A stretch of 64,000 nucleotides of DNA, taken from IMG/VR virus record IMGVR_UViG_3300027759_000043; one strand, written 5' to 3'. The position numbers and the translations under genes were made by a program. This document shows, in pieces, positions 1 to 18,754 of this stretch (the first letter of the stretch is position 1; every line of letters begins with the position of its first letter). This DNA is from a virus. Its lineage: Duplodnaviria; Caudoviricetes. The notes below the pieces were generated by a model that did no database searches, had not been told where the DNA came from, and saw only the letters and a program-made list of their open reading frames with translations.

Positions 1-21
1 CTTGTCATCTCAGCACAAAGG

Positions 22-50
22 TTGACAAATAATCAAAATAAATATATACT
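22..50 (+). promoter_or_regulatory. sigma70-type promoter of the tmRNA gene
   Basis: TTGACA (22-27), 17-bp spacer, TATACT (45-50); predicted start ~57, just before the tmRNA acceptor piece. Confidence 0.85.
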
Positions 51-57
51 GCTAGTT

Positions 58-340
58 ATTGCTGTATGAAGCAGATAAAAATGGATTCAAGACTCGGGGG
101 CAGTGCCCGAATGGTCCACCAGAAGCATAATCGATTGGCTCATAGCCAGTTGAGACATAAGAAACATGATTGTGCTTCTGGTGGGCCATACACAGGATCG
201 ATTGGGTCAGAAGTATTGAAGTGGACAGCACATCAGAGTAGATGTTAAAACTAAAAAAAAGTAAACGCAAACGACTCACAGTTCGCATTGGCCGCGTAAA
301 GTAGCCTAGGGTAGGAAATACCTCGTAACAGAAACCACCA
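58..340 (+). ncRNA. ssrA: circularly permuted (two-piece) tmRNA
   Basis: T-arm TCGGG-GGCAGTG-CCCGA (94-110) followed by ATGGTCC-A-CCA (111-121) lies upstream of the 5' acceptor strand GGGCCAT (183-189). The two strands pair with a G3.U70 alanine determinant. Intervening segment 122-182 is closed by a stem. Tag ORF GCA AAC GAC TCA CAG TTC GCA TTG GCC GCG TAA (267-299) = ANDSQFALAA*. Outer ends are approximate. Confidence 0.92.
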
Positions 341-367
341 AGCCCGCTTCGGCGGGCTTTTTCTTTT
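340..367 (+). terminator. Rho-independent terminator after tmRNA
   Basis: AAGCCCGC-TTCG-GCGGGCTT hairpin followed by a T-rich run. Confidence 0.9.
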
Positions 368-374
368 ATAAATA
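367..374 (+). promoter_or_regulatory. T4-type late promoter TATAAATA
   Basis: Exact T4 late -10 element, 6 nt before the ATG at 381; a gp55-like sigma factor is encoded in the window. Confidence 0.6.
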
Positions 375-380
375 TCCCTG

Positions 381-1112
381 ATGAAACCTGTCTTAATCCT
401 GCAACACCAAACACCTGAGCGACCTGCTTATCTTGTGACATGGTTGACGCAACACAATATTGAATATGAAACACGCTGTGCTGGTGCAGGTCAAGAATTC
501 CCCCAATCAATAGAACCTTATTCAGCCTTGGCTGTGATGGGTGGCGGTATGAGTGCTAATGATCCGTTATTGTCAAACCGTCAAGCCGAGATCTTAATCC
601 TGCAGGCCATGCGCCGGGATCGTCCAGTAATAGGACATTGCTTGGGTGGGCAACTCATGAGTCGCGCACTGGGTGGTGTTATCAGCACATCACCACAGCC
701 TGAAATAGGTTGGCAACCCATTGACTATGAACAGGTTCCCGAAGTAACAGAGTGGTTTGGTAACAATCCTACTCCACGTGTGATACAGTGGCACTATGAA
801 ACTTTCAGCATACCTGAAGGTGCCACACGGCTAGCAGGTTCCACAGCCTGTCCAAATCAAGCCTGGGCCATGGGTCCACATTTGGCCATGCAGTTTCACA
901 TAGAAATGGATGAGATCAAAGCACGGGAATGGGTCGGAGATGAAGATCCCAAATGGGCCGCGGCCCGAGCACAATACGTTACTGTGCAAGACAGTCAAGC
1001 AATTGTGGCGGGAATCCAACCACATTTGACACAGCATCAAGCCACTGCTGATCATGTTTACCGAACTTGGCTAAAAAACACAAATTGGAACGCTGCCTTG
1101 TCAACTAACTAG
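381..1112 (+). CDS. class I glutamine amidotransferase-like protein
   Basis: VMGGGMS oxyanion strand, GHCLGGQL nucleophile elbow, QWHYETF, QFHIE (His-x-Glu). Confidence 0.85.
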   Translation: MKPVLILQHQTPERPAYLVTWLTQHNIEYETRCAGAGQEFPQSIEPYSALAVMGGGMSANDPLLSNRQAEILILQAMRRDRPVIGHCLGGQLMSRALGGVISTSPQPEIGWQPIDYEQVPEVTEWFGNNPTPRVIQWHYETFSIPEGATRLAGSTACPNQAWAMGPHLAMQFHIEMDEIKAREWVGDEDPKWAAARAQYVTVQDSQAIVAGIQPHLTQHQATADHVYRTWLKNTNWNAALSTN

Positions 1113-1151
1113 AGCCCTAAGGCGTTGTATATGTATGTCAAGGAGACATTG

Positions 1152-1307
1152 ATGATACATGCTACCAAATGTGACAGTCAGGACAAGCCCGGCAAAAATG
1201 AAATACCAAAGTCCATGATCAACTGGATGCGAGTTCGAGATTGTCCAGACTGTGATCGCAAACGAACCACTGTTTGTAAAGATCCCACTTGCAGTCGTCG
1301 AAAGTAA
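1152..1307 (+). CDS. small Cys-rich hypothetical protein
   Basis: AGGAG at 1141-1145 before ATG 1152; CPDC and CKDPTC motifs, possibly zinc binding. Confidence 0.5.
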   Translation: MIHATKCDSQDKPGKNEIPKSMINWMRVRDCPDCDRKRTTVCKDPTCSRRK

Positions 1308-1321
1308 TCCTACCAAACCGG

Positions 1322-1349
1322 TTGATTTCCTACACAATTCCTGTATAAT
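1322..1349 (+). promoter_or_regulatory. sigma70-like promoter
   Basis: TTGATT, 16-bp spacer, TATAAT; ATG at 1357 follows after 7 nt. Confidence 0.55.
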
Positions 1350-1356
1350 ACCATGT

Positions 1357-1599
1357 ATGGGAACGCAAACAGACTATTTCGAACGCATAGGTTACCGGGC
1401 CCAGTACCAGATAGGCGATAGAGTATTTGGGCACTGGAACTCAATTCCGTTTGTGGGCACTGTGGGCAACGACCGCGTGATTGACAAGACCGGCCCACAA
1501 GTGACCATTCATTTAGATCTACCCATACATCATGACCAACAAACACGCAATGTGGTTATTGTTCAACACAAAGATATCACCAAACTTAAAGAAATGTAA
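1357..1599 (+). CDS. hypothetical phage protein
   Basis: In-frame ATG of ORF 1252..1599 just downstream of the promoter; 80 aa. Confidence 0.65.
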   Translation: MGTQTDYFERIGYRAQYQIGDRVFGHWNSIPFVGTVGNDRVIDKTGPQVTIHLDLPIHHDQQTRNVVIVQHKDITKLKEM

Positions 1600-1608
1600 A
1601 GGAAACCC

Positions 1609-1848
1609 ATGTCAAGACTCAGCAGTGAATTAGCAGTGGAACGAATTGGCAATCGTTATGATTTGATCCTAGTGGCCAGTCGACGTGCCCGAGAACTCAG
1701 CCGCGGCGATCGGCCCCGGGTTGATCCAGGACAGAGCAATATCAGCACAGCCCTGCTGGAAATCGAGCAAGGTGCTGTAGATCGCAGTTATCTCTATAAA
1801 AATCAAGATTTAGCCGCCACAAGCCATCATAGGAAATATCAATCATGA
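1609..1848 (+). CDS. rpoZ: DNA-directed RNA polymerase omega subunit (phage-encoded)
   Basis: MSRLSSELAVERIGNRYDLILVASRRAREL...ALLEIEQG matches the omega signature (IGNRFDLVLVAARRARQ...ALREIEEG); AAGGA RBS. Confidence 0.88.
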   Translation: MSRLSSELAVERIGNRYDLILVASRRARELSRGDRPRVDPGQSNISTALLEIEQGAVDRSYLYKNQDLAATSHHRKYQS

Positions 1849-2006
1849 TCAAACCCGGAAGCACTTATAAAATGAGTCGTGCCAATAAAGTGATGTTGGC
1901 TTCATATGTTGACCGTAACAAGCGTGGCGAAATCAAACGCACAGTGATTCAGGCAGATCTTTATGGTCGTCAGTTCACGCCCAAAAATCGTGACACGAAT
2001 AAATAA
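1845..2006 (+). CDS. 53-aa hypothetical protein (absent from ORF track)
   Basis: ATGA overlap with the rpoZ stop; MIKPGSTYKMSRANKVMLASYVDRNKRGEIKRTVIQADLYGRQFTPKNRDTNK*. Confidence 0.6.
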   Translation: MIKPGSTYKMSRANKVMLASYVDRNKRGEIKRTVIQADLYGRQFTPKNRDTNK

Positions 2007-2022
2007 ACACTATAGTTGTCTC

Positions 2023-2472
2023 ATGTATAAATCACGATATATACAGTATATACATCTGCCAACAATACCTCAAGATATTGTAGCAGAGGCGGTGTCCAAT
2101 ATTCCGTTGCACCTTAATAATAGCATTCCTAGTATTAATGACACTTATTATTGGTCCGATTTTGACAACAGACAATTAGATTCTTGGTGCAAGTCCAATA
2201 TCTGTCAGGATATATACTTTGCTTTTCAACTCATAACCGGCAACTTGTCATTGCACAAGGACAATATAACAAAGACTAAATTCAATTATCTTATACAAAC
2301 TGGCGGTGATTCAGTAATCACTACGTTTTATAACAACAATAAAGAAATAATTGAGTCCTATTCGATAGAGATCAACCGTTGGCATATAATCAAAGTTGAC
2401 ACATATCATAGTGTAAGCAATGTGCAACCTGGGCAAATAAGATTTTCAGTTACTGGTCGAATTTTTGAATAA
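2023..2472 (+). CDS. putative 2OG-Fe(II) oxygenase / cupin-fold protein
   Basis: LHKD...YHSV...RFSVT arrangement (HxD...H...R); AT-rich. Confidence 0.55.
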   Translation: MYKSRYIQYIHLPTIPQDIVAEAVSNIPLHLNNSIPSINDTYYWSDFDNRQLDSWCKSNICQDIYFAFQLITGNLSLHKDNITKTKFNYLIQTGGDSVITTFYNNNKEIIESYSIEINRWHIIKVDTYHSVSNVQPGQIRFSVTGRIFE

Positions 2473-2544
2473 ACCAATTTAGCCAAAATCAAAAATTAAG
2501 CCCAAAGTATTACCTTAAAAAAGTAATACTCTAGTACTACAAAA

Positions 2545-2572
2545 ACCCTGCAGAAATGTGGGGTATTTTTTT
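2545..2572 (+). terminator. putative terminator hairpin with GAAA loop
   Basis: ACCCTGCA-GAAA-TGTGGGGT (two G.U pairs) followed by a T-run and preceded by an A-run. Confidence 0.6.
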
Positions 2573-2574
2573 GG

Positions 2575-2603
2575 TTGACCGAATATTCCCTTTTTGCTAT
2601 AAT
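2575..2603 (+). promoter_or_regulatory. sigma70 promoter with extended -10
   Basis: TTGACC, 17-bp spacer, TGc-TATAAT; AAGGAG RBS before 2635. Confidence 0.85.
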
Positions 2604-2634
2604 ACTTGTATAGAAACTAAAAAGGAGTCAAAAA

Positions 2635-2895
2635 ATGAGTTATATGTCCACTGTACGTGCATTCGCAGAAGATGCCGCCCGTTCCCAAGTTTACGGGGGA
2701 CAACGCCGTCTTCAAAGTTACGGTCAAACCAGTTACATGCTGGGCGTAGGTATTGTGCGTTTTCGCAATGCAATTGACAAAGTAATGCCACAATATGTTG
2801 CAAAATTTGAAGCAGAAAAAATTGCTAGACAAATTGCCGAATTAGAGCGTGCCGGTTATACAGTAACCAAAAACACAGAAACAGTAGGAGCCTAA
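2635..2895 (+). CDS. hypothetical phage protein
   Basis: Strong RBS and promoter; 86 aa. Confidence 0.7.
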   Translation: MSYMSTVRAFAEDAARSQVYGGQRRLQSYGQTSYMLGVGIVRFRNAIDKVMPQYVAKFEAEKIARQIAELERAGYTVTKNTETVGA

Positions 2896-2897
2896 AA

Positions 2898-3362
2898 ATG
2901 GGAACTCGTAGTCGTATCGCAGTCATGCATGGTGAAGTCTGTAAATCAGTTTATTGCCATTGGGATGGCTATTTGGAACACAACGGTGCTATCTTGCAGG
3001 AACACTATGATTCAAGCAAGGCCAATCAGTTGGTTGCCATGGGCGACTTGAGTAGCCTGCGTCCCGAGATTGGTGTCAAGCATCCTTTCTCTAGTTTGGA
3101 TCCCGAAGCCGGTAGCGACTACGATCAACGCTATGGCAACATGTGTACCTTTTACGATCGTGATCGTGGTGAAACAGACTGCACTTGGAGCGTTGATCAT
3201 ACGTTTGAAGACTTTTTGGCCCGTGCCCGAGATTGCTGTGCCGAGTTTTACTATGTGATGAAAGATGGTGAGTGGTATGTGGGCGACACTTATGGCTCAA
3301 CTGAGTTAAGTAATCGATTAACGCCACTTGCCCAAGCCATGCAAGCCGTAGAAACTGTTTGA
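2898..3362 (+). CDS. conserved phage hypothetical protein (HWDGY motif)
   Basis: MGTRSRIAV...SVYCHWDGY motif common in phage early proteins; AGGAG RBS. Confidence 0.75.
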   Translation: MGTRSRIAVMHGEVCKSVYCHWDGYLEHNGAILQEHYDSSKANQLVAMGDLSSLRPEIGVKHPFSSLDPEAGSDYDQRYGNMCTFYDRDRGETDCTWSVDHTFEDFLARARDCCAEFYYVMKDGEWYVGDTYGSTELSNRLTPLAQAMQAVETV

Positions 3363-3387
3363 CACAAAATTGCATTTCGCATATAAT
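3359..3387 (+). promoter_or_regulatory. sigma70 promoter
   Basis: TTGACA, 17-bp spacer, TATAAT (perfect consensus). Confidence 0.9.
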
Positions 3388-3417
3388 TGACTTATCTTAA
3401 CTAGCAAAGGAAACACA

Positions 3418-4500
3418 ATGTCAGAATCCCGTACAGTCACAGCCGTGCAGGCTCGTAAAAGTTTGCTCCGTGCATTCAAGGTTCAACGTCCCTTGTTCTT
3501 GTGGGGGCCTCCCGGTATTGGCAAGAGTGAACTGGTAGAAGGTATCACTCGAGAACTTGGTGGCTTGATGATTGACTTGCGTTTGGGACAAATGGAGCCA
3601 ACAGACATCCGTGGTATTCCTTTTTACAACAAGGACATTGGCAAGATGGACTGGGCTGAGCCTGTGGAACTGCCTGATGAGGCCACTGCCAGCCAGTATC
3701 CTGTTGTGGTGTTGTTCCTAGACGAACTTAACTCAGCCGCACCCTCTGTCCAGAGTGCCGCTTATCAACTAATTTTGAATCGACGCATTGGCAAGTATAA
3801 GTTACCTGACAATGTTGTGATGGTTGCCGCAGGTAACCGTGAAAGCGACAAAGGTGTTACTTATAGAATGCCAACTCCCTTGGCAAATCGCTTTATCCAC
3901 CAAGAAATGAAGGTGGACTTTCCTTCCTGGCAAGAGTGGGCGGTGAACAACAACATCCACAAAGACGTGGTGGGTTACTTGAGTTTTGCCAAGCAAGACT
4001 TATATGACTTTGATGCCAAGAGTGCAAGCCGTGCATTTGCTACACCACGCTCTTGGACCTTTGTGAGCCAGTTACTGGACGAGGAAGAAGACAATGACAC
4101 TGTGACCAACTTGATTGCTGGTACAGTTGGCGAGGGTCTTGCTGTGAAGTTCATGGCACACCGCAAGGTTGCAAGCAAGATGCCTAACCCCAGCGACATC
4201 TTGAGTGGCAAGGTCAAGGACTTGAATGTAAAAGAAGTCAGTGCCATGTACAGCCTGGTGATCTCCATGTGCTATGAACTTAAAGGTGCAGTGGAGACCA
4301 AAGTAGAGGACAAGAAGTTCCATGAAATGAGTGACAACTTCTTTGGTTACATGATGAAGAACTTTGAGACCGAGTTGGTTGTGATGGGTGCTAGAATTGC
4401 ACTTACCACATACAACTTACCGTTCCAACCCAGCAAGTTGAAGAACTTTGATGAGTTCCATCAGCGTTATGGCAAGTACATCTTGCAGGCGTCAGCCTAA
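3418..4500 (+). CDS. MoxR-type AAA+ ATPase
   Basis: Walker A GPPGIGKS, Walker B LFLDE, VAAGN sensor, LANRF arginine finger, ATPRSW. Confidence 0.9.
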   Translation: MSESRTVTAVQARKSLLRAFKVQRPLFLWGPPGIGKSELVEGITRELGGLMIDLRLGQMEPTDIRGIPFYNKDIGKMDWAEPVELPDEATASQYPVVVLFLDELNSAAPSVQSAAYQLILNRRIGKYKLPDNVVMVAAGNRESDKGVTYRMPTPLANRFIHQEMKVDFPSWQEWAVNNNIHKDVVGYLSFAKQDLYDFDAKSASRAFATPRSWTFVSQLLDEEEDNDTVTNLIAGTVGEGLAVKFMAHRKVASKMPNPSDILSGKVKDLNVKEVSAMYSLVISMCYELKGAVETKVEDKKFHEMSDNFFGYMMKNFETELVVMGARIALTTYNLPFQPSKLKNFDEFHQRYGKYILQASA

Positions 4501-4524
4501 TCAATACAGAAAGATAGTACATAC

Positions 4525-5271
4525 ATGGTAGCCAAAATTAGAAAATTGACATTTAGTCCGGCGTTTCCGCAAACTCATTCAACAAAATTTACCAATTTAT
4601 TGGTCAGTGGTGGAAGTTATGTCTGGAATAATTCTGAAGATCATGTGTGTACTTGGCCTTACGTGTTGAAAGATCTAGCGGGCTTTCAAGAAGTGTATGA
4701 TTGCAGTCAGAGCGGAGCGGGTCCAACTCATGTGTTCAATAGTATAATCAATGAGATAGAAACAAATAAAGATTTGAACTCTGATAACACAATAATAATT
4801 GTCATGCTGTCAGACATGTCTATTACTGATACTATTACAATCAAAAGTATTACAAAAACATGGCACCACATGAGCAATTATGATTTCAATGATCAATTTA
4901 GTACGTTGACCTTGTTTAAAGAAATTGCTCATAAAGATTCTTCAAATTCTTCTTTAGAAAAACTTTGTGTTGAGTATGCTAAACATATTGATTTTGATGC
5001 TCAAGTTTATGAGAACTTGATCAAAATCAAAGCATTACATGCCTATCTCAATGCAAAAAAATTCCAAACAATTTATCTGCATTGGAATACTGCAGAGATA
5101 CCGGATTTAAACAATTATTTGGATCAAATCGAGTCGTTGGACCATTGGACTCAACATAACAATATGAGAATACCTGGAGATCCGCATCCTGCACCCGAGG
5201 CACACCTGACTTGGACTAGAAATGTATTGGTTCCGTATCTTGAAGATAAAAAACTAATAGATAAAATATAA
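4525..5271 (+). CDS. SGNH/GDSL-like hypothetical protein
   Basis: LLVSGGSY N-terminal Ser motif and C-terminal GDPHP; AT-rich compared with neighbours. Confidence 0.55.
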   Translation: MVAKIRKLTFSPAFPQTHSTKFTNLLVSGGSYVWNNSEDHVCTWPYVLKDLAGFQEVYDCSQSGAGPTHVFNSIINEIETNKDLNSDNTIIIVMLSDMSITDTITIKSITKTWHHMSNYDFNDQFSTLTLFKEIAHKDSSNSSLEKLCVEYAKHIDFDAQVYENLIKIKALHAYLNAKKFQTIYLHWNTAEIPDLNNYLDQIESLDHWTQHNNMRIPGDPHPAPEAHLTWTRNVLVPYLEDKKLIDKI

Positions 5272-5304
5272 ATGATCCGGTTATAAAAAGTATTATTTTT
5301 GTGT

Positions 5305-5333
5305 TTGACTATAAATTCATGAAATGCTATAAT
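5305..5333 (+). promoter_or_regulatory. sigma70 promoter with extended -10
   Basis: TTGACT, 17-bp spacer, TGc-TATAAT; AAGGA RBS before 5360. Confidence 0.85.
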
Positions 5334-5359
5334 ATACACATACACAACAAAGGACACCA

Positions 5360-6628
5360 ATGACAACAACCACAGTATCAAAAGAAGACGCTAAAAAGTT
5401 CGCTAATCTTATTGGGCCAATGGATGCCAAACTAGATCGCGAAGTACGTGAAATTTTAATTACTGCTCGTGTGGGCCTGTTGTTAAAAGCGTCATTCTTT
5501 GGCAACCTTGCTACTCGTTTAAAACTAGTAAACGCAGATGAGTGGTGTGCTACTGCCGCAACAGACGGCCGCAATTTCTACTACAATAGTCGTTTCATTA
5601 AAATGTTGAGGCCCAAAGAAGTTGAGTTCCTGTTTGGACATGAGGTATTGCATTGTGTTTATGATCACTTTGGACGTAGAGGTGATCGCGATCCACAGTT
5701 GTGGAACATTGCAGACGACTTCTGTGTGAACGCAGACTTGAAGAAACACCATGTGGGCGAGTTTATTACGTCAGTGCCATGTTTGTATGATCACAAATAT
5801 GACGGCATGAGTGCAGAAGAAGTGTATGATATCTTGTATGAAAAAGCAGACAAGATTGATATCAGTAGCCTGTTGGACAAGATGATCGACGAGCACATGG
5901 ATGGTGACGACGAGCAAGATGGTGGTGGCAATGGTGACCAAGAAGGCAAAGGTCGTCCACGTTTGAGTAAAGAAGAACGTCAACAGATCAAGGATGAAAT
6001 CAAAGAAGCCATGTTGGCAGCCGCAAGTGCAAGTGATGCAGGCAACATTCCAGCAGGTGTCAAGCGTCTTATACAAGAGTTGACCGAGCCCAAGATGAAC
6101 TGGCGTGAACTTTTGCGTATGCAATTGGAGAGCACTATCAAATCGGACTTTACTTGGATGCGGGCTAGTCGCAAAGGTTGGCACATGGATGCTGTGATGC
6201 CGGGCATGAAGGTAGATCCCATGATTGATATTGCTATTGCAATTGACGCATCAGGTTCAATTGGTGAACGCATGCTCAAGGACTTTTTAGGTGAGATCCA
6301 AGGCATTATGGATTCGTTCCCTGCGTATCGTATTCATTTGTTTACATTTGACACTGATGCATACAATCCTGCACAATATGATTCAGATAACTTGGATGAC
6401 ATTTGTGACTATGAAGTTGCAGGTGGCGGCGGTACTGACTTTGATTGTATCTTCAAGTATTTGAAAGACAATGAGATTGAACCCAAGCGTCTTGTGGTGT
6501 TTACAGACGGCTACCCATTTGGTTCGTGGGGTGATGAGAACTATGCAGACACTGTTTGGATCTTGCACGGTACTACGACTATTGAACCACCCTGGGGCCA
6601 ATATGCCTACTACGACGAGGCCGAGTAA
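5360..6628 (+). CDS. metallopeptidase-like (HExxH) plus VWA-domain protein, partner of MoxR ATPase
   Basis: AATDG...HEVLH zinc motif; C-terminal MIDAS DASGS, GGGGTDF, FTDG. Confidence 0.88.
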   Translation: MTTTTVSKEDAKKFANLIGPMDAKLDREVREILITARVGLLLKASFFGNLATRLKLVNADEWCATAATDGRNFYYNSRFIKMLRPKEVEFLFGHEVLHCVYDHFGRRGDRDPQLWNIADDFCVNADLKKHHVGEFITSVPCLYDHKYDGMSAEEVYDILYEKADKIDISSLLDKMIDEHMDGDDEQDGGGNGDQEGKGRPRLSKEERQQIKDEIKEAMLAAASASDAGNIPAGVKRLIQELTEPKMNWRELLRMQLESTIKSDFTWMRASRKGWHMDAVMPGMKVDPMIDIAIAIDASGSIGERMLKDFLGEIQGIMDSFPAYRIHLFTFDTDAYNPAQYDSDNLDDICDYEVAGGGGTDFDCIFKYLKDNEIEPKRLVVFTDGYPFGSWGDENYADTVWILHGTTTIEPPWGQYAYYDEAE

Positions 6629-6843
6629 TGGACCCGCGCATTGAAGAACTTGCACTCAAGTGCGGTGCTTGGAATCAAGTGTATGGCAACAGAACATTCA
6701 TGATTGACGAGCACTTTGATATTGAGAAGTTCGCCCAGTTGATTGTTCGGGAATGTGCCGCAGAAGCCGACAAGCAAACCATTTACTGTAGAGGTATTCC
6801 TTGGGGTAGATGGATTAAAGAACATTTTGGACTCCAAAATTAG
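6628..6843 (+). CDS. hypothetical phage protein
   Basis: TAATG coupling; FAQLIVRECA motif common in small phage proteins. Confidence 0.65.
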   Translation: MDPRIEELALKCGAWNQVYGNRTFMIDEHFDIEKFAQLIVRECAAEADKQTIYCRGIPWGRWIKEHFGLQN

Positions 6844-6859
6844 GAGTGCCAATTTTACC

Positions 6860-6896
6860 AAAATCCCCGTAAAAAAATGACTACGGGGATTTTTTG
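6860..6896 (+). terminator. Rho-independent terminator (possibly bidirectional)
   Basis: AAAATCCCCGTA ... TACGGGGATTTT inverted repeat with T-run. Confidence 0.85.
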
Positions 6897-6910
6897 TTGT
6901 AAATATCTAC

Positions 6911-7153
6911 ATGAACGACACAAATGAATCAACACAATTCACTATTGCTGATCTTGCTGGAATACGCAACATCATCGACCTGGCTTGCCAGCGTGGCGCT
7001 TTTCGTGGGGAAGAAATGAAGGACGTGGGGTTGGTATTTGAACGCCTCACTAACTTTATTATCAGTGCCCAGGAAGCCGCCGAAGCACAAGCCCAGGCTC
7101 CGGACGCTGAACAAGAGCCTACCGAGCCAGCCACACCAACTCAAGGAGAATAG
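6911..7153 (+). CDS. hypothetical protein
   Basis: 80 aa; TAAATA at 6900-6905, 5 nt upstream of the ATG. Confidence 0.7.
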   Translation: MNDTNESTQFTIADLAGIRNIIDLACQRGAFRGEEMKDVGLVFERLTNFIISAQEAAEAQAQAPDAEQEPTEPATPTQGE

Positions 7154-7154
7154 C

Positions 7155-7892
7155 ATGGCATTTTTAAAACACATAGGCAAACATGGCGACCGTAAGGTTG
7201 TTATTATTTTTAGACAGATTCCAGGTGACGAGCACATGTGCTTGTGCATCTATCCAGACTTGTTGGCATCACACTGGCACGATACCATTATGAAGGTATT
7301 GGAAAGTCCCGTGGGGCAGGCCGCTGAAGAGTTTGCTGACGCACTCAACCGCAACCTCCTACCTGATGGTCGTAACATCCTGGGCGCATTACACGCTGAG
7401 CGCATGATGAAACGTGTGAACACCGAACAAGTGTTAATGACCCCCACCATCAACAGCAACGTCAAACTTGTGGAACTCAACAAGATCCTTAACGAGATGA
7501 AAAAGGGTGAAGACGCTGTGCGCAAGATGGCCGAGATTGACGGGGCAAGAGGCTTGGTTGATCCCAAACAAAAACGTGCCGCTGAAGCACAATACAAATC
7601 CGAACAACAAGCACCCAAGGCACAGTCAGGTTATACTGCCGCGCCAACAGATGGTGCTTTAGATGACAAGAGTCTGGCTGCCAACATGCTGACACAGGCT
7701 GTTCGTATGCATAATGAAGCCACTAGCATGATCAATGAAGCCGCACGTATGCGCAAAGAAGCAGAGAAAATGTTTCCTGGTGTTAAAATGATGGACCTTC
7801 CCAAGATGGCACCAATGCCCACAGTAGAAACAGAAGCACCTGCGCCTAAAAAGCGTGGACGTAAACCTGCTGTGGCTCATGCAACTCAGTGA
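7155..7892 (+). CDS. hypothetical protein
   Basis: AAGGAG RBS before ATG 7155 (in frame with the ORF-track start at 7038); basic Pro-rich tail. Confidence 0.75.
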   Translation: MAFLKHIGKHGDRKVVIIFRQIPGDEHMCLCIYPDLLASHWHDTIMKVLESPVGQAAEEFADALNRNLLPDGRNILGALHAERMMKRVNTEQVLMTPTINSNVKLVELNKILNEMKKGEDAVRKMAEIDGARGLVDPKQKRAAEAQYKSEQQAPKAQSGYTAAPTDGALDDKSLAANMLTQAVRMHNEATSMINEAARMRKEAEKMFPGVKMMDLPKMAPMPTVETEAPAPKKRGRKPAVAHATQ

Positions 7893-8181
7893 TGAATTTC
7901 TTGAGCAATGGGATCATATAATTTCTGGCGTAGACAAAACTGAAGTTCCGTTAGAGTGCATTAACAAAATTGTTATTCGCTTGCAAGGTGGTCGTCAAAA
8001 GACCATCAACCTTGCTCGACTCAAACGTGATGGTTTTGATCTTGAAGAAATTGAATCGTATCTCACTAGAAACCTTGTTGAACTTGGAGATATGGTGCGC
8101 GACATAGACTTCTTGGTAGATGTCAACGCTGTGGCTCGCCTGGTACAACCAGAAACCGATAAACTTTTAAAAGATCTATGA
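7879..8181 (+). CDS. hypothetical protein
   Basis: Coupled between neighbours; start adjusted to MQLSDEF. Confidence 0.65.
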   Translation: MQLSDEFLEQWDHIISGVDKTEVPLECINKIVIRLQGGRQKTINLARLKRDGFDLEEIESYLTRNLVELGDMVRDIDFLVDVNAVARLVQPETDKLLKDL

Positions 8182-8869: not shown

Positions 8870-9202
8870 ATGGCTATTACTAACTATCAGCCCACACATT
8901 CCGATCTATCCAAACCCCGCGAAGTCAAAGTAATTGATGGTGTTGCAATTGCATATAGCGATGTGGTTGTGCATCACTTCCCTATGGGCGATGTAGAGGA
9001 TCCGGACTTGTATGCGGCACAACCTTTATATGAATGGCAACAGAGCGAAGTGGGCGCATGGGTAATGGCTCATGCTGTGGAGCCTCCTTTTTGGACCAGA
9101 CAACCAGACATGGACTCATACGGGTATCGCTATTATATTGTGGCTAGATTGAAAGAAGCAGATCAAACTTATTTTAAATTAAAGTGGAGTAATATCAAAT
9201 GA
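8870..9202 (+). CDS. hypothetical phage protein
   Basis: 110 aa; GDVEDPDLYAA...FKLKW; ATGA-coupled to the epimerase. Confidence 0.7.
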   Translation: MAITNYQPTHSDLSKPREVKVIDGVAIAYSDVVVHHFPMGDVEDPDLYAAQPLYEWQQSEVGAWVMAHAVEPPFWTRQPDMDSYGYRYYIVARLKEADQTYFKLKWSNIK

Positions 9203-10167
9203 AATTTTTAGTAACAGGCGGCTTGGGTCTTATTGGACACAACGTAGTCCAACGACTACAAAAACGCGGCGAAGATGTTGTGATTGTAGATAACCGCACC
9301 ACGTATGGTATCGTACCACAAGACGAACTAGATTACTTGATGGCAGAACGTTGGAAAAAGATTGACCCAACAGATGTATACTATACAGATATTGCTGATG
9401 GTGCCAAGTTTGATCAAATTGTAAAGAATCACAAACCCGAAGTGATCATACACATGGCGAGTTTTCCTAGACAGAAAGTTGTTAATTCCAACCCTGCGGC
9501 TGGCGCCAGGATTATGATGGAAGGCTTGATGAACATTTGTGAGAGTGCCAAAAAGCACGGTGTTGAGCGTGTGGTATATATAAGTTCGAGCATGGTGTAC
9601 GGGGACTTTGAAGACCAAGTGGAGGAAGAAGCAGAGTGCAAGCCCATTGGCCAATACGGCATCATGAAACTGGCAGGAGAAGACATTGTCCGAGACTACC
9701 ATAGACGCGGCGCTTTTGATTACGCTATTGTTCGCCCTAGTGCTGTGTATGGCCCACTTGATGTGGAGGACCGGGTGGTTGCAAAGTTTATGCTCCAGGC
9801 CATGCGTGGTGAGGTTCTCCGAGTTAACGGAGCCTCGGAAACACTTGACTTCACGTATGTTGATGATGCGGCAGATGGTATTGTTGCGGCGGCCACAAGA
9901 ATTATGGCGGCAAATCGTACATATAATATTACCCGATCACATTCGGTAAGTTTGCTAGAAGCCGCCGAAATGATTGTGAAGATTGTGGGTAAGGGTACTA
10001 TTGAGTGTCGTGATAGAGATGCAGACTTCCCCACACGTGGTGCATTGTGTATTGATCGCGCACGAGTGATCCTGGGCTTTGATCCCCGAGTAGACGTTGA
10101 AGAAGGATTCCAAAATTACTACAACTGGCTTAACAATTCCGTTTACTGGTCTAAGAAAACAGTATAA
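9199..10167 (+). CDS. NAD-dependent NDP-sugar epimerase/dehydratase (extended SDR)
   Basis: GGLGLIG Rossmann motif, ISSSMVYG, YGIMK (YxxxK), DFTYVDD. Confidence 0.92.
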   Translation: MKFLVTGGLGLIGHNVVQRLQKRGEDVVIVDNRTTYGIVPQDELDYLMAERWKKIDPTDVYYTDIADGAKFDQIVKNHKPEVIIHMASFPRQKVVNSNPAAGARIMMEGLMNICESAKKHGVERVVYISSSMVYGDFEDQVEEEAECKPIGQYGIMKLAGEDIVRDYHRRGAFDYAIVRPSAVYGPLDVEDRVVAKFMLQAMRGEVLRVNGASETLDFTYVDDAADGIVAAATRIMAANRTYNITRSHSVSLLEAAEMIVKIVGKGTIECRDRDADFPTRGALCIDRARVILGFDPRVDVEEGFQNYYNWLNNSVYWSKKTV

Positions 10168-11212
10168 TAATCTCCGCACAGAAATCCTGGACGCCACAGA
10201 TGAAGTGTTGCGTTCGGGTATTCTCATGGGCGGTAACTATACTGCTGAGTTTGAAAACTGGCTGGCCCAAAAGAATCATGTGAGTTATGCTGTGACTTGC
10301 CACTCAGGCACACAAGCACTTGAGATATTGGCTGGTTTCTACCGCGATATGGACTTGGCGTTTATTAAGCCTCCCACAGTGATTGTGCCAGCACTAACGT
10401 ATCCGGCCACTGCTAATGCTTTCCTACGAGCAGGTTGGTCGGTCATAATTGGGGACACTGACTACTACGGTCAGATTGATGTGAGAAAAATGATCAATGA
10501 CTTGGACACACACTATCATGCTGTGTGTGCTGTTGGCCTGTATGGTGCGGCCCTACGTGACATGCGGCCAGTCGAAAGTCGTGCTTTGTTAATTGAAGAT
10601 GCGGCTCAGCACTGGTTAAGCGACGGGTGTAAGAGACAAGGTAGTGCCACTGCTATCAGTTTTGATCCCACAAAGAACTTGGCCAACTATGGCAATGGTG
10701 GTGCCATAGTGTCAGATGATCGTAATCTCTTGGACTATGCAAGAAACTGGGTCAACAATGGCAAGCATACTAGACACGCTGAAACTGGCACAAACTCAAG
10801 AATGAGTGAAACAGATTGTGCTCAGATGATGATCAAGACACGTTATATTGATGCTTGGCAAAAACGACGGGCTGAGATTGCCAATCACTGGATCGAACGA
10901 TTAAAGAACACAGGCATACGTACCCTAATAGATGATACCAACTTTTCAACGCATTGTTATCATAAGTTTGTAATTGAAGTGGATGCCAGAGATATTGTGC
11001 AACGTAATCTTGCCATACGCAAGATCGAAACCAAGGTACACTATGCTGAACCCTTGCACGAACTGCTTGCATACAGAAGTCTTGCTGGTCCTGACTTGTT
11101 GAGTCCGGCAAGTGCGCTGAGTCGGCGTTGTCTAAGTCTTCCTATCTACCCTGAGTTGTCAGACTTGGAAGTAGAATACATTATTGATCAGTTGTTAGAT
11201 TGTGTCAACTAA
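10097..11212 (+). CDS. DegT/DnrJ/EryC1/StrS PLP-dependent sugar aminotransferase (start uncertain: TTG 10097 or ATT 10115)
   Basis: SGTQAL, IEDAAQ, SFDPTKNL catalytic Lys motif, GTNSRMSE, LSLPIYPEL. Confidence 0.9.
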   Translation: MKKDSKITTTGLTIPFTGLRKQYNNLRTEILDATDEVLRSGILMGGNYTAEFENWLAQKNHVSYAVTCHSGTQALEILAGFYRDMDLAFIKPPTVIVPALTYPATANAFLRAGWSVIIGDTDYYGQIDVRKMINDLDTHYHAVCAVGLYGAALRDMRPVESRALLIEDAAQHWLSDGCKRQGSATAISFDPTKNLANYGNGGAIVSDDRNLLDYARNWVNNGKHTRHAETGTNSRMSETDCAQMMIKTRYIDAWQKRRAEIANHWIERLKNTGIRTLIDDTNFSTHCYHKFVIEVDARDIVQRNLAIRKIETKVHYAEPLHELLAYRSLAGPDLLSPASALSRRCLSLPIYPELSDLEVEYIIDQLLDCVN

Positions 11213-14992: not shown

Positions 14993-16160
14993 TCATAGAG
15001 ATCCTGCGACAGGTAGGCCCATGCCCAATGGTATTCCATTGAGCCAACATCATTTGATCGAACTCATGGATGGTTATAGACTAGACTATCCTAGAATCAT
15101 ATATTACCTGCATCAGTGTCAGATTCCTATGAAAATAGTTTCAACAGTTGATGCACCTGCAGGTGCTTGGTACCCTGTTGTACTTGGATGGTTTGATTTT
15201 TCAGCAGACTATCTTGCCATGATTGATACTGCCGCATACAAGTATATCAAACAAAAACAAATGAAGTTGATATTTACGTATCATGAAGGTGATAATCCTG
15301 CTTGTATACGAGAACGTATCAATCATTTGTGTGCTGACCATGCAATAGATCCTGAACAGGTATGGTTGATAAGTGGTAACACATCGGCTGATCTTGTGCC
15401 CGGTTGTGTGTACTGGCCTGAGTTAGAATTTATGTATTGGCGCACCGTGGATCGATCAGCAGGTGCCCGGTATCATCTGCGCCCAAGAAGTCGAGCGTTT
15501 ACTGGCCTATGTAGAATAGACAAACTGTGGCGCAAAGTATTCATGAGCGAACTATGGGCCGATGATTTACATAAAAATGGATATTTTAGTTACAATCAAC
15601 ATCTATTAGGCGGTGAGGATGACTATTTTGGTTGTGCGTTGAACAACAGTTATTTGTCTAACAAACAATCGCAAGTTGACCAATTTATCGCCGCAGGACC
15701 ATTTCGTGTGGACCAACTAAACACAGACTCTCATAACAACTATGCGGCCAATATGACCAACCTCTATGAGGACAGTTATTTCAATATTGTGTTGGAAACC
15801 ATGATTGATGTGGACGATTCAGGTGGGGAGTTTCTGACAGAAAAAACATTCAAGCCTATATTCAACAATCAATTTTTTATCACGGTTAGCGGCGCCAATC
15901 ATATGGCACATCTACGTGAACTAGGGTATCAATCTTTTGGTCTTGTGATAGATGAACACTATGACACAATAGAAAACAATCAAGAGCGATTTGAAGCGGT
16001 GCTGGCGCTTACTAAAGATTTGTGTGCTAGACCATTGACAGAGTTGCACTCGATCTATCAGCAGTTACAACCGGAAATCACACACAACCATCAAGTATTT
16101 GTAGCAGGTATGGGTCACCGACTACAAGCAGTGGTTGATCGCATCAACTGCAAACCTTAA
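14973..16160 (+). CDS. TEK-family putative glycosyltransferase, paralogue 2
   Basis: FLTEKTFKPIFNNQFF...LGYQSFGLVIDEHYD. Confidence 0.55.
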   Translation: MIYLAIDHRDPATGRPMPNGIPLSQHHLIELMDGYRLDYPRIIYYLHQCQIPMKIVSTVDAPAGAWYPVVLGWFDFSADYLAMIDTAAYKYIKQKQMKLIFTYHEGDNPACIRERINHLCADHAIDPEQVWLISGNTSADLVPGCVYWPELEFMYWRTVDRSAGARYHLRPRSRAFTGLCRIDKLWRKVFMSELWADDLHKNGYFSYNQHLLGGEDDYFGCALNNSYLSNKQSQVDQFIAAGPFRVDQLNTDSHNNYAANMTNLYEDSYFNIVLETMIDVDDSGGEFLTEKTFKPIFNNQFFITVSGANHMAHLRELGYQSFGLVIDEHYDTIENNQERFEAVLALTKDLCARPLTELHSIYQQLQPEITHNHQVFVAGMGHRLQAVVDRINCKP

Positions 16161-17622
16161 CACTATACAACTGCTCAAAACGATCTGCATCTGCACGATC
16201 ATTCACCATGGGTTCGCCACGTATGTTAAGACTGGTGTTCAACAACATAGGGCATCCTGTTAACACGTACCATTTCTCTAGTAGTTCTCTTATGCCCGAA
16301 CCGTCCCGCGCCACAGTCTGTACTCGGCTGGTACCATCAACATGACATATAGCAGGAGTAAGGTCAGGCTGGCGACACCTAGCGACTGACTGCATATAAG
16401 GACTATGATGCCAACCCACTGGCATATCAAAATAGTCATGAACCACCTCAGCCAATATAACCGGGGCAAAAGGCCTAAACTGTTGTCTACGTTTGATTTC
16501 ATTCACTTTCTCCTTGATCTCGCTGCCTCTAGGGTCTGCAAGGAGGCTACGGTTTCCCAGTGCGCGGGGGCCGAACTCGGCTCTTCCTGATGCCACTCCG
16601 ACAATTTTGTCACTAACAAGCCGATCCAACAACTGGTTAACAGGATAAACACCTGGAATGCAATGGCCGAGATAACTGTCCCGCCAGTTAATTCTACTCC
16701 CAAGAGCCAAAGCGGCAGCACCGAGACTGCTACCAGCATCACCGGGGCAAGGCATAATCCAGATTTTGTCAAAGTAATCTCCTAACATGCGGTTGGCTGT
16801 GCAATTTAGTGCCACCCCACCCATATATACCAGATTTGAACTAAAACCTGTGTTTCTGGCACGAATCATTACTTGTCGAATAAGATCCTCTGCTACCAGT
16901 TGCCCAGAGGCCGCAATGTTTTCATTGCTGGCGCCCTTTAAGAAATCCTCACTCATTCCTGTGTGAAAGTTTTGCTTTAGTTCAATATCACGATCGTTTG
17001 CAATCACATGTGAACGCATGTCATGATACCACGTGTTACGACCCCAGGCAGCCATGCCCATAGTGATGTATTCTTCGTCTAGTGGGTGTAGGCCAATACG
17101 CTGGGTGACTGCACTGTAAAATAACCCAATGCTGTGTGGATAAACCTGTCTCCACAATCTCTTGTACCGGGCCTGGCCTTTTGAATCATATTCTGCACCC
17201 CATATACTAATAGTATCCCATTCACCAATTGCATCTATTACCACTACTGTGGCACGTTCAAAAGGTGACGTTTGAAAACCCCCTGCCGCATGCGATAAAT
17301 GATGATTATAACTATGCACCTTTGTGGGTTCAATTTGTCTACCCAGTTGTTTCTTTAATATCTGCTGGGTGGTGAGTTTGTCCCATTCAATACCTTGACC
17401 TGCGTACCATTGTCGTGCTTGTTTTGCCCAAGGGCGTTCATAGTAAGCAACCACTTCAGGACCATATGCAAGAACTTCGTCTAGCAGACCTTGACAAAAG
17501 TCTGCATCATTTTTCTTTTTGCTATAACGCTCTGAATGGCCGGCAAACAATATCTCCCCGTCAAGGCTTATGACTGTTGCAGCCGCATCATGAAAGCCAG
17601 CAGAGATGCCCAGGATGTTCAT
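16144..17622 (-). CDS. carbamoyltransferase, NodU/CmcH/TobZ family
   Basis: GISAGFHDAAA, HHLSHAA, IDAIGE, MGMAAW, GDAGSSLGAA, EFGPRALGNRS, RPFAP, LLNTSLN. Confidence 0.93.
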   Translation of the reverse strand: MNILGISAGFHDAAATVISLDGEILFAGHSERYSKKKNDADFCQGLLDEVLAYGPEVVAYYERPWAKQARQWYAGQGIEWDKLTTQQILKKQLGRQIEPTKVHSYNHHLSHAAGGFQTSPFERATVVVIDAIGEWDTISIWGAEYDSKGQARYKRLWRQVYPHSIGLFYSAVTQRIGLHPLDEEYITMGMAAWGRNTWYHDMRSHVIANDRDIELKQNFHTGMSEDFLKGASNENIAASGQLVAEDLIRQVMIRARNTGFSSNLVYMGGVALNCTANRMLGDYFDKIWIMPCPGDAGSSLGAAALALGSRINWRDSYLGHCIPGVYPVNQLLDRLVSDKIVGVASGRAEFGPRALGNRSLLADPRGSEIKEKVNEIKRRQQFRPFAPVILAEVVHDYFDMPVGWHHSPYMQSVARCRQPDLTPAICHVDGTSRVQTVARDGSGIRELLEKWYVLTGCPMLLNTSLNIRGEPMVNDRADADRFEQLYSVKVCS

Positions 17623-17720
17623 TTGTAGATAAATGGATCTCGCTTGCGTAGTTCTTTTAATTTTTTACGATAACGAATTTCTAATGTAATTCTTGCCCAA
17701 AGTCTTTTAAACCAATTCAT
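17619..17720 (-). CDS. 33-aa basic micro-protein (absent from ORF track)
   Basis: MNWFKRLWARITLEIRYRKKLKELRKRDPFIYK*; ATGA overlaps at both ends. Confidence 0.75.
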   Translation of the reverse strand: MNWFKRLWARITLEIRYRKKLKELRKRDPFIYK

Positions 17721-18754
17721 TTTATATTCCTAATTTGTTGTTCTGCGTAGTCTGGATCACTCCAGTGATACTCATATGTAGCCTGTGCTGTACTGGTACG
17801 TATTTTATACACGTTTTGATGTTGACTCAATTGCGAGTATATGTTGTCCCAGTCTTCTGTACCAAACGACCTCGAGAGATCAACTTGCCCGATGCAAGGG
17901 TGGCCGATTGTAAGACTTGCATCATCTGGGTCAAATCCATTCCGTTCAAGCCATAGTCGAAATTCTGCCAACTGCTTGATTTGCCAAGGGAATGAGCCGG
18001 GATCACGGGCCCATTCAATATCAAAGTCACCAGCCGCTTGAGTCTGGACACGTAGTCCTGTAGTAACCAATTCTGAAATTCTCGAATCTCTACCTTCATC
18101 TTGAAATACCTCCCAGTGATGCTTGCCCACTGCTTTATTTACACCCACATACACACCGCCCAATTTTCTGTTGATTGTGTCTATACCAAACAATTCTAAA
18201 TCTTCAGCATCTAATTCATAGCGCGGAGCGTTTAACCAACACATGAGTTGTGATGGTCTGCGCCATTCAGGTGCAGTTCGGGCTTTGCGTATGCTAAGTA
18301 CCAGGCTTTCAAACTCATGACATAGCAAATTTAACTGGCGTATGTGCCAACGTGTGTAGTCATCGGCTGAATCATAATAGGAACTCATGGCTCCGGCTGT
18401 TCCTTGTAAGTCTTCAAAGTAACGATGCAGTTGATTCATGTGTGCATGATCCACCCCTCCATTGTCAGCAACGGTGTTGGCCGGGGAGAAGAAGTCTTGT
18501 ATGGTATAGCCTAGGTTGGCTGAGTTGATGGCGTGTATACTGCGATTGATTTGAGTACACAGGTATTCAGGATTGCGAGCACTTTCAGCCCAACCCAACC
18601 AGCAGTAATTCTTTTCCAAATGTAGATTATTTTGAATAATATTATTCAACGCCGCAAGCCATTTACGGCTGAGACTGTTGTCCTCGACATCTATGTGTAC
18701 CGTTAAAATTTCATTGTTATGACCGCGCAGGTCCATTTCGATATGATCAAGCAA
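17717..18754 (-). CDS. hypothetical protein in the modification cluster
   Basis: 345-aa ORF coupled to both neighbours; no motif recognised. Confidence 0.7.
   Translation of the reverse strand: MLDHIEMDLRGHNNEILTVHIDVEDNSLSRKWLAALNNIIQNNLHLEKNYCWLGWAESARNPEYLCTQINRSIHAINSANLGYTIQDFFSPANTVADNGGVDHAHMNQLHRYFEDLQGTAGAMSSYYDSADDYTRWHIRQLNLLCHEFESLVLSIRKARTAPEWRRPSQLMCWLNAPRYELDAEDLELFGIDTINRKLGGVYVGVNKAVGKHHWEVFQDEGRDSRISELVTTGLRVQTQAAGDFDIEWARDPGSFPWQIKQLAEFRLWLERNGFDPDDASLTIGHPCIGQVDLSRSFGTEDWDNIYSQLSQHQNVYKIRTSTAQATYEYHWSDPDYAEQQIRNIK

What the first reader, a model, noticed from the sequence alone, without database searches (positions are those of the whole stretch)
22..367. Jumbo phage carries a complete circularly permuted, two-piece tmRNA gene with its own promoter and terminator
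The 3' tRNA-like half (T-arm 94-110, ATGGTCC-A-CCA 111-121) comes before the 5' half (GGGCCAT 183-189). They pair G-C, G-C, G.U, C-G, C-G, A-U, U-A, keeping the alanine determinant. ACCA (118-121) pairs with TGGT (179-182) and GAAGCATAATC (122-132) with GATTGTGCTTC (168-178), so the intervening segment extends the acceptor stem, as expected of a permuted precursor. Helix 2 is supported by TTGGGTC/GATTCAA and GCTGT/ACAGC. The tag reads ANDSQFALAA with a canonical LAA degron. Permuted tmRNAs are established in alphaproteobacteria and some cyanobacteria and betaproteobacteria, and phage tmRNAs are known, but a permuted one in a phage is unusual and easily missed. It could sustain ribosome rescue during infection or when host tmRNA is cleaved.
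Basis: partly seen in the sequence, partly recalled or inferred. Interest (0 to 1): 0.85.

Follow-up and report, generated by a model that had tools for sequence, protein, structure and literature searches.

The report
Two-piece tmRNA gene in freshwater jumbo phage
A giant freshwater phage carries a real, complete "two-piece" ribosome-rescue RNA (tmRNA) gene of the betaproteobacterial type; such phage genes are already known and this family is common, but this one has an unusual T-loop that makes the standard detector miss it.

Summary
Window 9-362 (+) matches Rfam beta_tmRNA (101 bits, E 1e-29) and tmRNA_permuted (95 bits).

The window is phage DNA with T4-like baseplate, late sigma factor and SbcD genes. 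Its baseplate protein is 68-94% identical to those of 320-353 kb phage genomes, one of them complete with terminal repeats.

The gene is not rare. I found 93 unique homologous permuted tmRNAs on IMG/VR viral contigs. Compensatory changes occur in the acceptor stem, T-stem and helix 2, and G3.U70 is invariant. Published surveys already report two-piece tmRNAs in phages and tmRNAs in huge phages.

No SmpB was found in ten related phage records, so host SmpB is presumably used. Contigs from lake RNA libraries match this allele exactly over 220-332.

The new detail is the T-loop, GGCAGUG instead of UUCGAUU. Its first six bases are conserved in 21 diverged phage sequences, and it comes with a changed D-loop. 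It was absent from 33 sampled cellular tmRNAs. ARAGORN finds only 5 of 20 GGCAGUG/GGCAGUU sequences.

Verdict: real, a new member of a known kind, of moderate interest.

The parts
22..50 (+). Sigma-70-type promoter: -35 TTGACA 22-27, 17-nt spacer, -10 TATACT 45-50. The transcription start at about 57 is inferred.
   Evidence: 11 of 12 matches. The -35 and -10 hexamers are recognisable in 5 of 7 aligned relatives.
57..121 (+). Acceptor piece, the 3' tRNA-like half, about 65 nt. It holds helix strands 61-65 and 84-90, the T-arm 94-110 (stem 94-98/106-110, non-canonical loop GGCAGUG 99-105), the acceptor 3' strand 111-117, discriminator A118 and C119-C120-A121.
   Evidence: Covariation in the T-stem and helix strands. 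The 5' end is inferred from the promoter.
122..182 (+). Intervening segment, removed on maturation (inferred). Positions 122-132 pair with 168-178, and ACCA 118-121 pairs with 179-182, extending the acceptor stem. There is an inner hairpin at 135-147.
   Evidence: In 83 of 88 relatives at least 80% of the flanking positions tested (up to 15) pair, although the sequence and length (23-342 nt) differ.
183..362 (+). Coding piece, the 5' tRNA-like half plus the mRNA-like part. It holds the acceptor 5' strand 183-189 with G185 (G3.U70), the D-loop analogue 190-201, helix strands 202-208 and 225-229, the PK1-position hairpin 230-245, the tag, and the 3' region.
267..299 (+). Tag reading frame: resume codon GCA 267-269, ANDSQFALAA, stop TAA 297-299.
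   Evidence: In relatives fetched independently of the tag (L001-L031) the tag is ANDS/EQFALAA, with synonymous changes in the Ala codons and UAA/UGA stops.
309..334 (+). Short hairpin 309-313/319-323, followed by the motif CCUCGUAACAGAA, which is almost invariant across the family.
   Evidence: the motif is essentially invariant among the 45 commonest sequence variants listed from 93 unique sequences, and U312-A320 becomes C-G in 2 sequences. Cellular beta-type tmRNAs have a similar motif, CCUUGUUACCAAAG.
340..367 (+). Intrinsic terminator: stem 340-347/352-359, loop UUCG, then a T run.
   Evidence: Covariation in relatives.

Best explanation
Window 57-362 is a genuine, expressed, circularly permuted tmRNA (ssrA) gene of the betaproteobacterial two-piece type. 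It sits at the edge of the tRNA region of a roughly 350 kb T4-like freshwater jumbo phage.

Likely mechanism:
1. Host RNA polymerase transcribes one precursor from a strong sigma-70 promoter, probably early in infection.
2. The precursor folds so that the intervening segment 122-182 extends the acceptor stem.
3. Host tRNA-processing enzymes cut it: RNase P at the 5' side of G183, and 3' trimming to CCA121. This leaves an acceptor piece of about 65 nt and a coding piece of about 150-180 nt, held together by the acceptor stem and helices 84-90/202-208 and 61-65/225-229.
4. Host AlaRS charges it through G3.U70. Host SmpB and EF-Tu deliver it to stalled ribosomes.
5. Translation resumes at GCA267 and adds ANDSQFALAA, marking the product for host proteases and freeing the ribosome.

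Shown: the sequence and structure match, family-wide covariation, the phage setting, and contigs from RNA libraries that match this allele. Inferred: the processing sites, charging, use of host SmpB, tagging, and the timing of expression.
For: - Model match: Rfam RF01850 at 101.1 bits and RF04321 at 95.2 bits, both full-length.
- All stems are present in the sequence, and the fold has z = -5.2.
- Promoter and terminator are present.
- 93 unique homologues on viral contigs. On a sequence-only alignment, acceptor positions 4-7 switch GC/CG/TA/AT, the T-stem switches GC/CG/AT/TA, and helix 84-90/202-208 has four pairs with double changes. Paired counts exceed all 500 shuffles, and G3.U70 is 83 of 83.
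- The PK1-position hairpin stem varies AUC/GAU, GGU/ACC, GAC/GUC, GAG/CUC.
- The tag is conserved with synonymous changes in relatives found through the neighbouring GATase gene, not through the tag.
- Phage setting: baseplate wedge, baseplate hub, gp25, late sigma factor and SbcD. The baseplate protein is 94% identical to that of a 122 kb fragment rated 35% complete, and 68-71% identical to those of four 320-353 kb genomes.
- All six genomes of this set rated at least 92% complete carry the gene.
- Contigs from lake-water RNA libraries of three runs, each from a different study, match window 220-283, 227-289, 227-276 and 263-332 with no differences. Those strings occur in no other of the 93 family members.
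Against: - The T-loop GGCAGUG lacks U54, U55 and A58 of the canonical T-loop. All 33 sampled cellular tmRNAs have UUC[GA]A, so folding, SmpB binding or EF-Tu delivery could be impaired or altered.
- The second stem of pseudoknot PK1 could not be identified.
- The helix that the Rfam beta model places after the tag is not formed.
- No phage SmpB was found, the host is unknown, and no experiment exists.
- Logan contigs cannot show RNA ends, and DNA can be present in RNA libraries.
- Tag conservation among loci L033-L152 is circular, because they were fetched with a tag pattern.
Confidence: 0.82

Rival explanations
1. Decoy or inhibitor. The RNA is charged or bound by SmpB but, because of its aberrant T-loop, works mainly to block or divert host trans-translation. 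[quoted passage not shown]
For: The T-loop is non-canonical, conserved in 21 phage sequences and absent from the sampled cellular tmRNAs. There is no phage SmpB. The DS6A precedent is cited in PMC11915505.
Against: The tag frame, the resume-codon context and the stop codon are intact, and they are conserved with synonymous changes. A pure decoy would not need them; the DS6A form lacks a tag CDS. Sister phage tmRNAs with canonical T-loops carry the same tag and architecture.
Confidence: 0.09
2. Specialised tagging. The tmRNA is fully active but serves the phage programme rather than general rescue. It might clear non-stop products created when tRNAs are cut out of phage transcripts, or speed turnover of host proteins.
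For: The gene lies beside the phage tRNA array: tRNA-Ser(ACU) and tRNA-Gly are about 1 kb upstream. An earlier unchecked note (e1-5407744) says two upstream ORFs have stop codons inside tRNA genes. A similar idea is raised for phage Melnitz in PMC9004378.
Against: Nothing in the sequence separates this from general ribosome rescue.
Confidence: 0.06
3. Inactive passenger: a host-derived ssrA copy or an integration-site remnant with no function in the phage.
For: Temperate phages often integrate into ssrA and can carry fragments of it (PMC9004378).
Against: The gene is complete, with its own promoter and terminator. It occurs in 93 diverged versions with compensatory changes. It is present in all six near-complete genomes of the set. 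It is only distantly similar to the sampled cellular beta-type tmRNAs. Its G+C of 0.44 matches the phage.
Confidence: 0.03

Closest known systems
Betaproteobacterial two-piece tmRNA (Rfam RF01850 beta_tmRNA; Sharkady & Williams 2004, cited from memory and from reference lists, paper not held)
   Same: Same permuted order: acceptor piece, intervening segment, coding piece. Same helix layout, a short tag ending in ALAA, a similar motif after the tag, and a terminal hairpin. It is the best-scoring model of the tmRNA clan. The closest sampled cellular example is L271 (169 bits, G+C 0.43, tag ANDENFALAA).
   Different: It scores 101 bits, against 169-296 for the cellular examples. The T-loop is GGCAGUG, not UUCGAUU. 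The D-loop analogue is CAGGAUCGA, not UGGUUUCGA. The helix after the tag is not formed. It is phage-borne at 44% G+C. Only 3 of 151 sampled genomes of that bacterial order have the type at all.
Two-piece tmRNAs of marine myophages (Methylophilales phage Melnitz, pelagimyophages; Buchholz et al. 2022, PMC9004378)
   Same: A complete permuted ssrA in T4-like phages, downstream of an early-type promoter, in an aquatic habitat, with no phage SmpB reported.
   Different: Those are the alphaproteobacterial type, and Melnitz carries a glutamine riboswitch. This one is beta-type, sits in a roughly 350 kb freshwater jumbo phage, produced no riboswitch hit, and has a non-canonical T-loop.
tmRNAs of huge phages (Al-Shayeb et al. 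2020, PMC7162821)
   Same: A jumbo phage with a large tRNA set plus a tmRNA.
   Different: That survey used ARAGORN, which misses this gene, and it reports SmpB in some huge phages. None was found in this group.
Mycobacteriophage DS6A tag-less tmRNA-like RNA (mentioned in PMC11915505)
   Same: A phage-encoded tmRNA-like RNA that depends on host factors.
   Different: DS6A lacks a tag reading frame and inhibits the host tmRNA. The window gene keeps a full, conserved tag frame.

Membership tests
tmRNA, permuted (two-piece) form, beta type (RF01850 / RF04321) | Score above the curated gathering threshold of the covariance model, over the full model length | tested here: met
   RF01850 101.1 bits against 84, positions 1-331. 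RF04321 95.2 bits against 47, positions 1-213.
tmRNA, permuted (two-piece) form, beta type (RF01850 / RF04321) | Seven-pair acceptor stem with G3.U70, discriminator A, and 3' CCA | tested here: met
   183-189 pairs with 111-117, including G185.U115, followed by A118-C119-C120-A121. G.U is found in 83 of 83 relatives, while positions 4-7 covary.
tmRNA, permuted (two-piece) form, beta type (RF01850 / RF04321) | Permuted gene order: the 3' tRNA-like half lies upstream of the 5' half and tag, separated by a removable segment that extends the acceptor stem | tested here: met
   57-121, then 122-182, then 183-362. The extension helix is present in 83 of 88 relatives.
tmRNA, permuted (two-piece) form, beta type (RF01850 / RF04321) | T-arm: a 5-pair stem and a 7-nt loop next to the acceptor stem | tested here: met
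   94-98/106-110 with loop 99-105. The stem covaries.
tmRNA, permuted (two-piece) form, beta type (RF01850 / RF04321) | Canonical T-loop sequence (U54 U55 C56 R57 A58). This is a near-universal trait rather than a formal criterion. | tested here: not met
   The loop is GGCAGUG. 33 of 33 sampled cellular tmRNAs have UUC[GA]A. GGCAGU is conserved in 21 unique phage sequences that are 64-97% identical to each other, and 18 of the 21 have the D-loop CAGGAUCGA.
tmRNA, permuted (two-piece) form, beta type (RF01850 / RF04321) | Helix 2 joining the tRNA-like and mRNA-like domains | tested here: met
   84-90/202-208 and 61-65/225-229, with compensatory changes.
tmRNA, permuted (two-piece) form, beta type (RF01850 / RF04321) | Pseudoknot PK1 upstream of the resume codon | tested here: inconclusive
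   Hairpin 230-234/241-245 is present and its stem covaries by eye. No convincing second stem was found.
tmRNA, permuted (two-piece) form, beta type (RF01850 / RF04321) | Tag reading frame that starts at an Ala codon without an initiator, ends in a hydrophobic Ala-rich degron, and has a stop codon | tested here: met
   GCA267 to TAA299 reads ANDSQFALAA. Synonymous variation occurs in independently fetched relatives.
tmRNA, permuted (two-piece) form, beta type (RF01850 / RF04321) | Maturation into two RNA pieces, Ala charging, SmpB-dependent tagging | not testable with these tools
   The only data are RNA-library contigs that match 220-332 exactly. Contigs cannot show RNA ends. No SmpB is encoded by the relatives.

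The most novel reading that the evidence does not exclude
A lineage of freshwater jumbo-phage tmRNAs has rebuilt the tRNA elbow. The T-loop GGCAGUG has no U54, U55 or A58, so it cannot be a substrate for the usual m5U54 and pseudouridine-55 enzymes. It is matched by a changed D-loop analogue, CAGGAUCGA. A second class pairs UGCGAAU with AG instead of GG in the D-loop. This may make the phage tmRNA partly orthogonal to host factors, or resistant to something that targets canonical T-loops.
Probability: 0.25. Interest if true: 0.6.

Novelty: new member of a known kind. Interest (0 to 1): 0.38.

Why it matters
It shows that a whole group of roughly 320-350 kb freshwater phages carries its own ribosome-rescue RNA but no SmpB. 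That points to heavy phage investment in keeping host ribosomes free during infection.

It also shows that ARAGORN-based phage annotation misses most of one T-loop class: only 5 of 20 GGCAGUG/GGCAGUU sequences are found. Surveys of phage tmRNAs therefore undercount.

The conserved non-canonical T-loop, with its matching D-loop change, is a natural test case for which elbow contacts tmRNA-SmpB function really needs.

The basic fact, a permuted tmRNA in a phage, is already published.

Tried and rejected
- ARAGORN on the window: no genes.
- INPHARED phage records: blastn of 1-8000 and of 1-400 found no relative of the tmRNA, only terminator-like scraps.
- Whole genome of the window: not held.
- Host naming: the tag-pattern scan of genome contigs gave mostly unrelated hits. 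Rhodocyclaceae, Dechloromonas, Uliginosibacterium and Limnobacter share an NDxQFALAA tag. The Dechloromonas and Limnobacter genomes tested score only 29-32 bits on RF01850, below the cut-off. The two close hits, L166/L262 (a 23 kb contig in a 'Haliscomenobacter' MAG) and L242/L261 (a 3 kb contig), are flanked by tRNAs and look like phage contigs binned into MAGs.
- Second stem of PK1: not found by inspecting 87 upstream regions.
- An RNAalifold run on the region after the tag crashed, so I read that region by eye.
- Phylogenetically independent test of T-loop against D-loop class: 3-4 independent contrasts, all in the same direction, sign test p about 0.125-0.25, not significant. The 199-column tree is poorly resolved.
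- Sharkady & Williams 2004 (PMC516066) is not held.
- Read laying: there was no cover over 361-1080 (the GATase gene) and almost none over the intervening segment 122-182. Many RNA contigs end at 330-335, with adapter sequence behind 332/335 in two runs. That is at best a weak hint that the mature 3' end lies before the terminator hairpin; no DNA run was laid for comparison.
- The minus-strand ORF 52-510 that overlaps the gene has no Pfam hit and overlaps the GATase start, so I treat it as spurious.

Full report
**Observation.**
- The acceptor stem is GGGCCAT 183-189 paired with ATGGTCC 111-117. It includes the G185.U115 wobble at the third pair and is followed by ACCA 118-121.
- The T-arm is 94-110.
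- ACCA/TGGT and 122-132/168-178 form a 15-pair helix that prolongs the acceptor stem.
- The helix 2 strands are 84-90/202-208 and 61-65/225-229.
- The frame GCA267 to TAA299 reads ANDSQFALAA.
- A TTGACA-17-TATACT promoter (11 of 12) lies at 22-50, and a GC-rich hairpin plus T run lies at 340-367.
- The MFE fold of 57-367 recovers the T-arm and the long acceptor/precursor helix, with z = -5.2.

Infernal gives full-length matches to RF01850 beta_tmRNA (101.1 bits, gathering 84, E 1.4e-29) and RF04321 tmRNA_permuted (95.2 bits, gathering 47). ARAGORN reports nothing in the window.

**What the genome is.** No whole genome is held, and INPHARED has no near relative. The window encodes the following:
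- a T4-type baseplate wedge (phrog_10646, E 1e-274), baseplate hub proteins, gp25, a gp55-like late sigma factor and an SbcD-like nuclease;
- ThyX, a MoxR-type ATPase and a DUF2201/VWA protein;
- sugar-modification and radical-SAM genes.

The 1146-aa baseplate protein is 94% identical to that of an IMG/VR fragment of 121,846 bp rated 35% complete. It is 68-71% identical to those of four phage genomes of 320-353 kb rated 92-100% complete, one of them with direct terminal repeats. So 'jumbo phage' is justified by kinship.

A JGI contig identical to window 1-2119 adds 2.9 kb upstream, holding tRNA-Ser(ACU) and tRNA-Gly(UCC). The tmRNA gene therefore sits at the edge of the phage tRNA region.

**Relatives.**
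- The neighbouring glutamine amidotransferase gene (381-1112) led to 32 IMG/VR loci. Seven of them have a beta_tmRNA hit of 110-156 bits near that gene.
- Two complete or near-complete relatives without one at that spot have it elsewhere in the genome, at 129 bits.
- nhmmer and parsing gave 111 loci and 93 unique genes with the same permuted order. They sit on contigs of up to 352,754 bp.

**Structure support.** On a sequence-only hmmalign alignment:
- G3.U70 is 83 of 83, while acceptor pairs 4-7 switch among GC, CG, TA and AT;
- the T-stem switches among GC, CG, AT and TA;
- helix 84-90/202-208 shows double changes at four pairs, and pair 62/228 switches CG/TA;
- paired counts exceed all 500 shuffles at these columns.

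The hairpin at the PK1 position changes its stem in a compensatory way across the family. I could not find a second pseudoknot stem.

The intervening segment varies from 23 to 342 nt. In 83 of 88 cases its ends still pair to extend the acceptor stem (87% paired, against 40% for shuffles). This fits a spacer that is processed out.

In the seven relatives found independently of the tag, the tag is ANDSQFALAA or ANDEQFALAA, with synonymous changes in the Ala codons and UAA or UGA stops. Tag conservation among the pattern-fetched loci is circular and is not counted.

**The odd T-loop.** The window's T-loop is GGCAGUG. Across the 93 sequences the loops fall into three classes:

| T-loop class | Unique sequences | Usual D-loop analogue |
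|---|---|---|
| Canonical UUCGAxU | about 30 | ..GGUUUCGA |
| UGCGAAU-like | 36 | ..AGUUUCGA or ..AGAUUCGA |
| GGCAGUG/U/A | 21 | CAGGAUCGA (18 of 21) |

The GGCAGU class members are 64-97% identical to each other. They carry five different T-stems and three acceptor stems, yet keep GGCAGU. All 33 sampled cellular tmRNAs of the related bacterial order have UUC[GA]A loops, and so do the three cellular beta-type genes examined.

On a poorly resolved tree there are only 3-4 independent contrasts between T-loop and D-loop class. All go the same way, with p about 0.125-0.25. Co-evolution of the two loops is therefore suggestive, not shown.

ARAGORN finds 73 of the 93 genes. It finds only 5 of the 20 with GGCAGUG or GGCAGUU, and all of those with canonical loops. 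That explains why it misses the window.

**Partners and expression.** SmpB (PF01668) was not found in ten related phage records, four of which are at least 92% complete. It was also not found among the window ORFs that were scanned. The RNA presumably uses host SmpB, AlaRS, EF-Tu and RNase P; this is inference.

The stretch occurs in freshwater metagenomes from several studies. Logan contigs from three lake-water RNA libraries, each from a different study, match window 220-283, 227-289, 227-276 and 263-332 without a difference. Those strings are unique to the window among the 93 family members. This is consistent with transcription of this allele, but contigs cannot show RNA ends. Parts of the stretch without cover are listed only under Tried and rejected.

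**Comparison with what is known.**
- Two-piece tmRNAs are established in three bacterial lineages, and RF04321 was built from them (PMC11915505).
- Buchholz et al. 2022 (PMC9004378) describe a two-piece ssrA in the T4-like phage Melnitz. They count 53 two-piece forms among 133 unique phage tmRNAs, mostly from aquatic phages.
- Al-Shayeb et al. 2020 (PMC7162821) report tmRNAs and SmpB in huge phages, detected with ARAGORN.

The kind is therefore known. What is specific here:
- the gene is beta-type, and only 3 of 151 sampled genomes of the relevant bacterial order have that type;
- it appears near-universal among the roughly 320-353 kb freshwater phage genomes examined;
- no phage SmpB was found;
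- the non-canonical T-loop class is conserved.

**Verdict.** I am confident this is a functional two-piece tmRNA gene that relies on host factors (0.82). The rivals are a decoy role (0.09), a specialised tagging role (0.06) and an inert passenger (0.03). It is a new member of a known kind, and interest is 0.38.

Noticed in passing
window 1609-1848 (+): A 79-aa ORF matches Pfam RNA_pol_Rpb6, the RNA polymerase omega family (46.5 bits, E 3.8e-12). The phage therefore appears to encode an RNAP omega-like subunit about 1.2 kb downstream of the tmRNA gene.
   Followed up: partly
L299 1837-2006 (about 0.9-1.1 kb upstream of the window start): ARAGORN calls tRNA-Ser with anticodon ACU, an A34 anticodon that is unusual for bacteria, directly followed by tRNA-Gly(UCC).
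   Followed up: partly
window 36502-48963 (-): A single open frame of 4153 aa lies directly upstream of the 1146-aa baseplate wedge gene. It is presumably a giant tail or baseplate-associated protein. It was not analysed.
   Followed up: no
window 16144-22123 (-): A cluster holds a carbamoyltransferase, two radical-SAM proteins (one with a SPASM domain) and ORFs without Pfam hits. Sugar epimerase and aminotransferase genes lie nearby at 9199-11212. This may be a modification pathway.
   Followed up: no
L006 4243-4329: About 800 nt upstream of that relative's real tmRNA gene there is a second, partial copy of the promoter and the 5' part of the acceptor piece (83% identical to window 26-113). 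It looks like a partial duplication.
   Followed up: no
L166/L262 and L242/L261 (genome contigs): Close homologues of the phage tmRNA, flanked by tRNAs, sit on short contigs (23 kb and 3 kb) of MAGs, one labelled Haliscomenobacter. These are probably phage contigs mis-binned into bacterial MAGs.
   Followed up: partly
window 57-362 compared with L006 and L079/L111: The window's T-arm and acceptor stem are identical to those of L006. Outside the T-loop and D-loop, however, its nearest rows on the family tree are L079 and L111, which are of the UGCGAAU class, and its PK1-region hairpin matches L079. This hints at recombination among phage tmRNA genes.
   Followed up: partly
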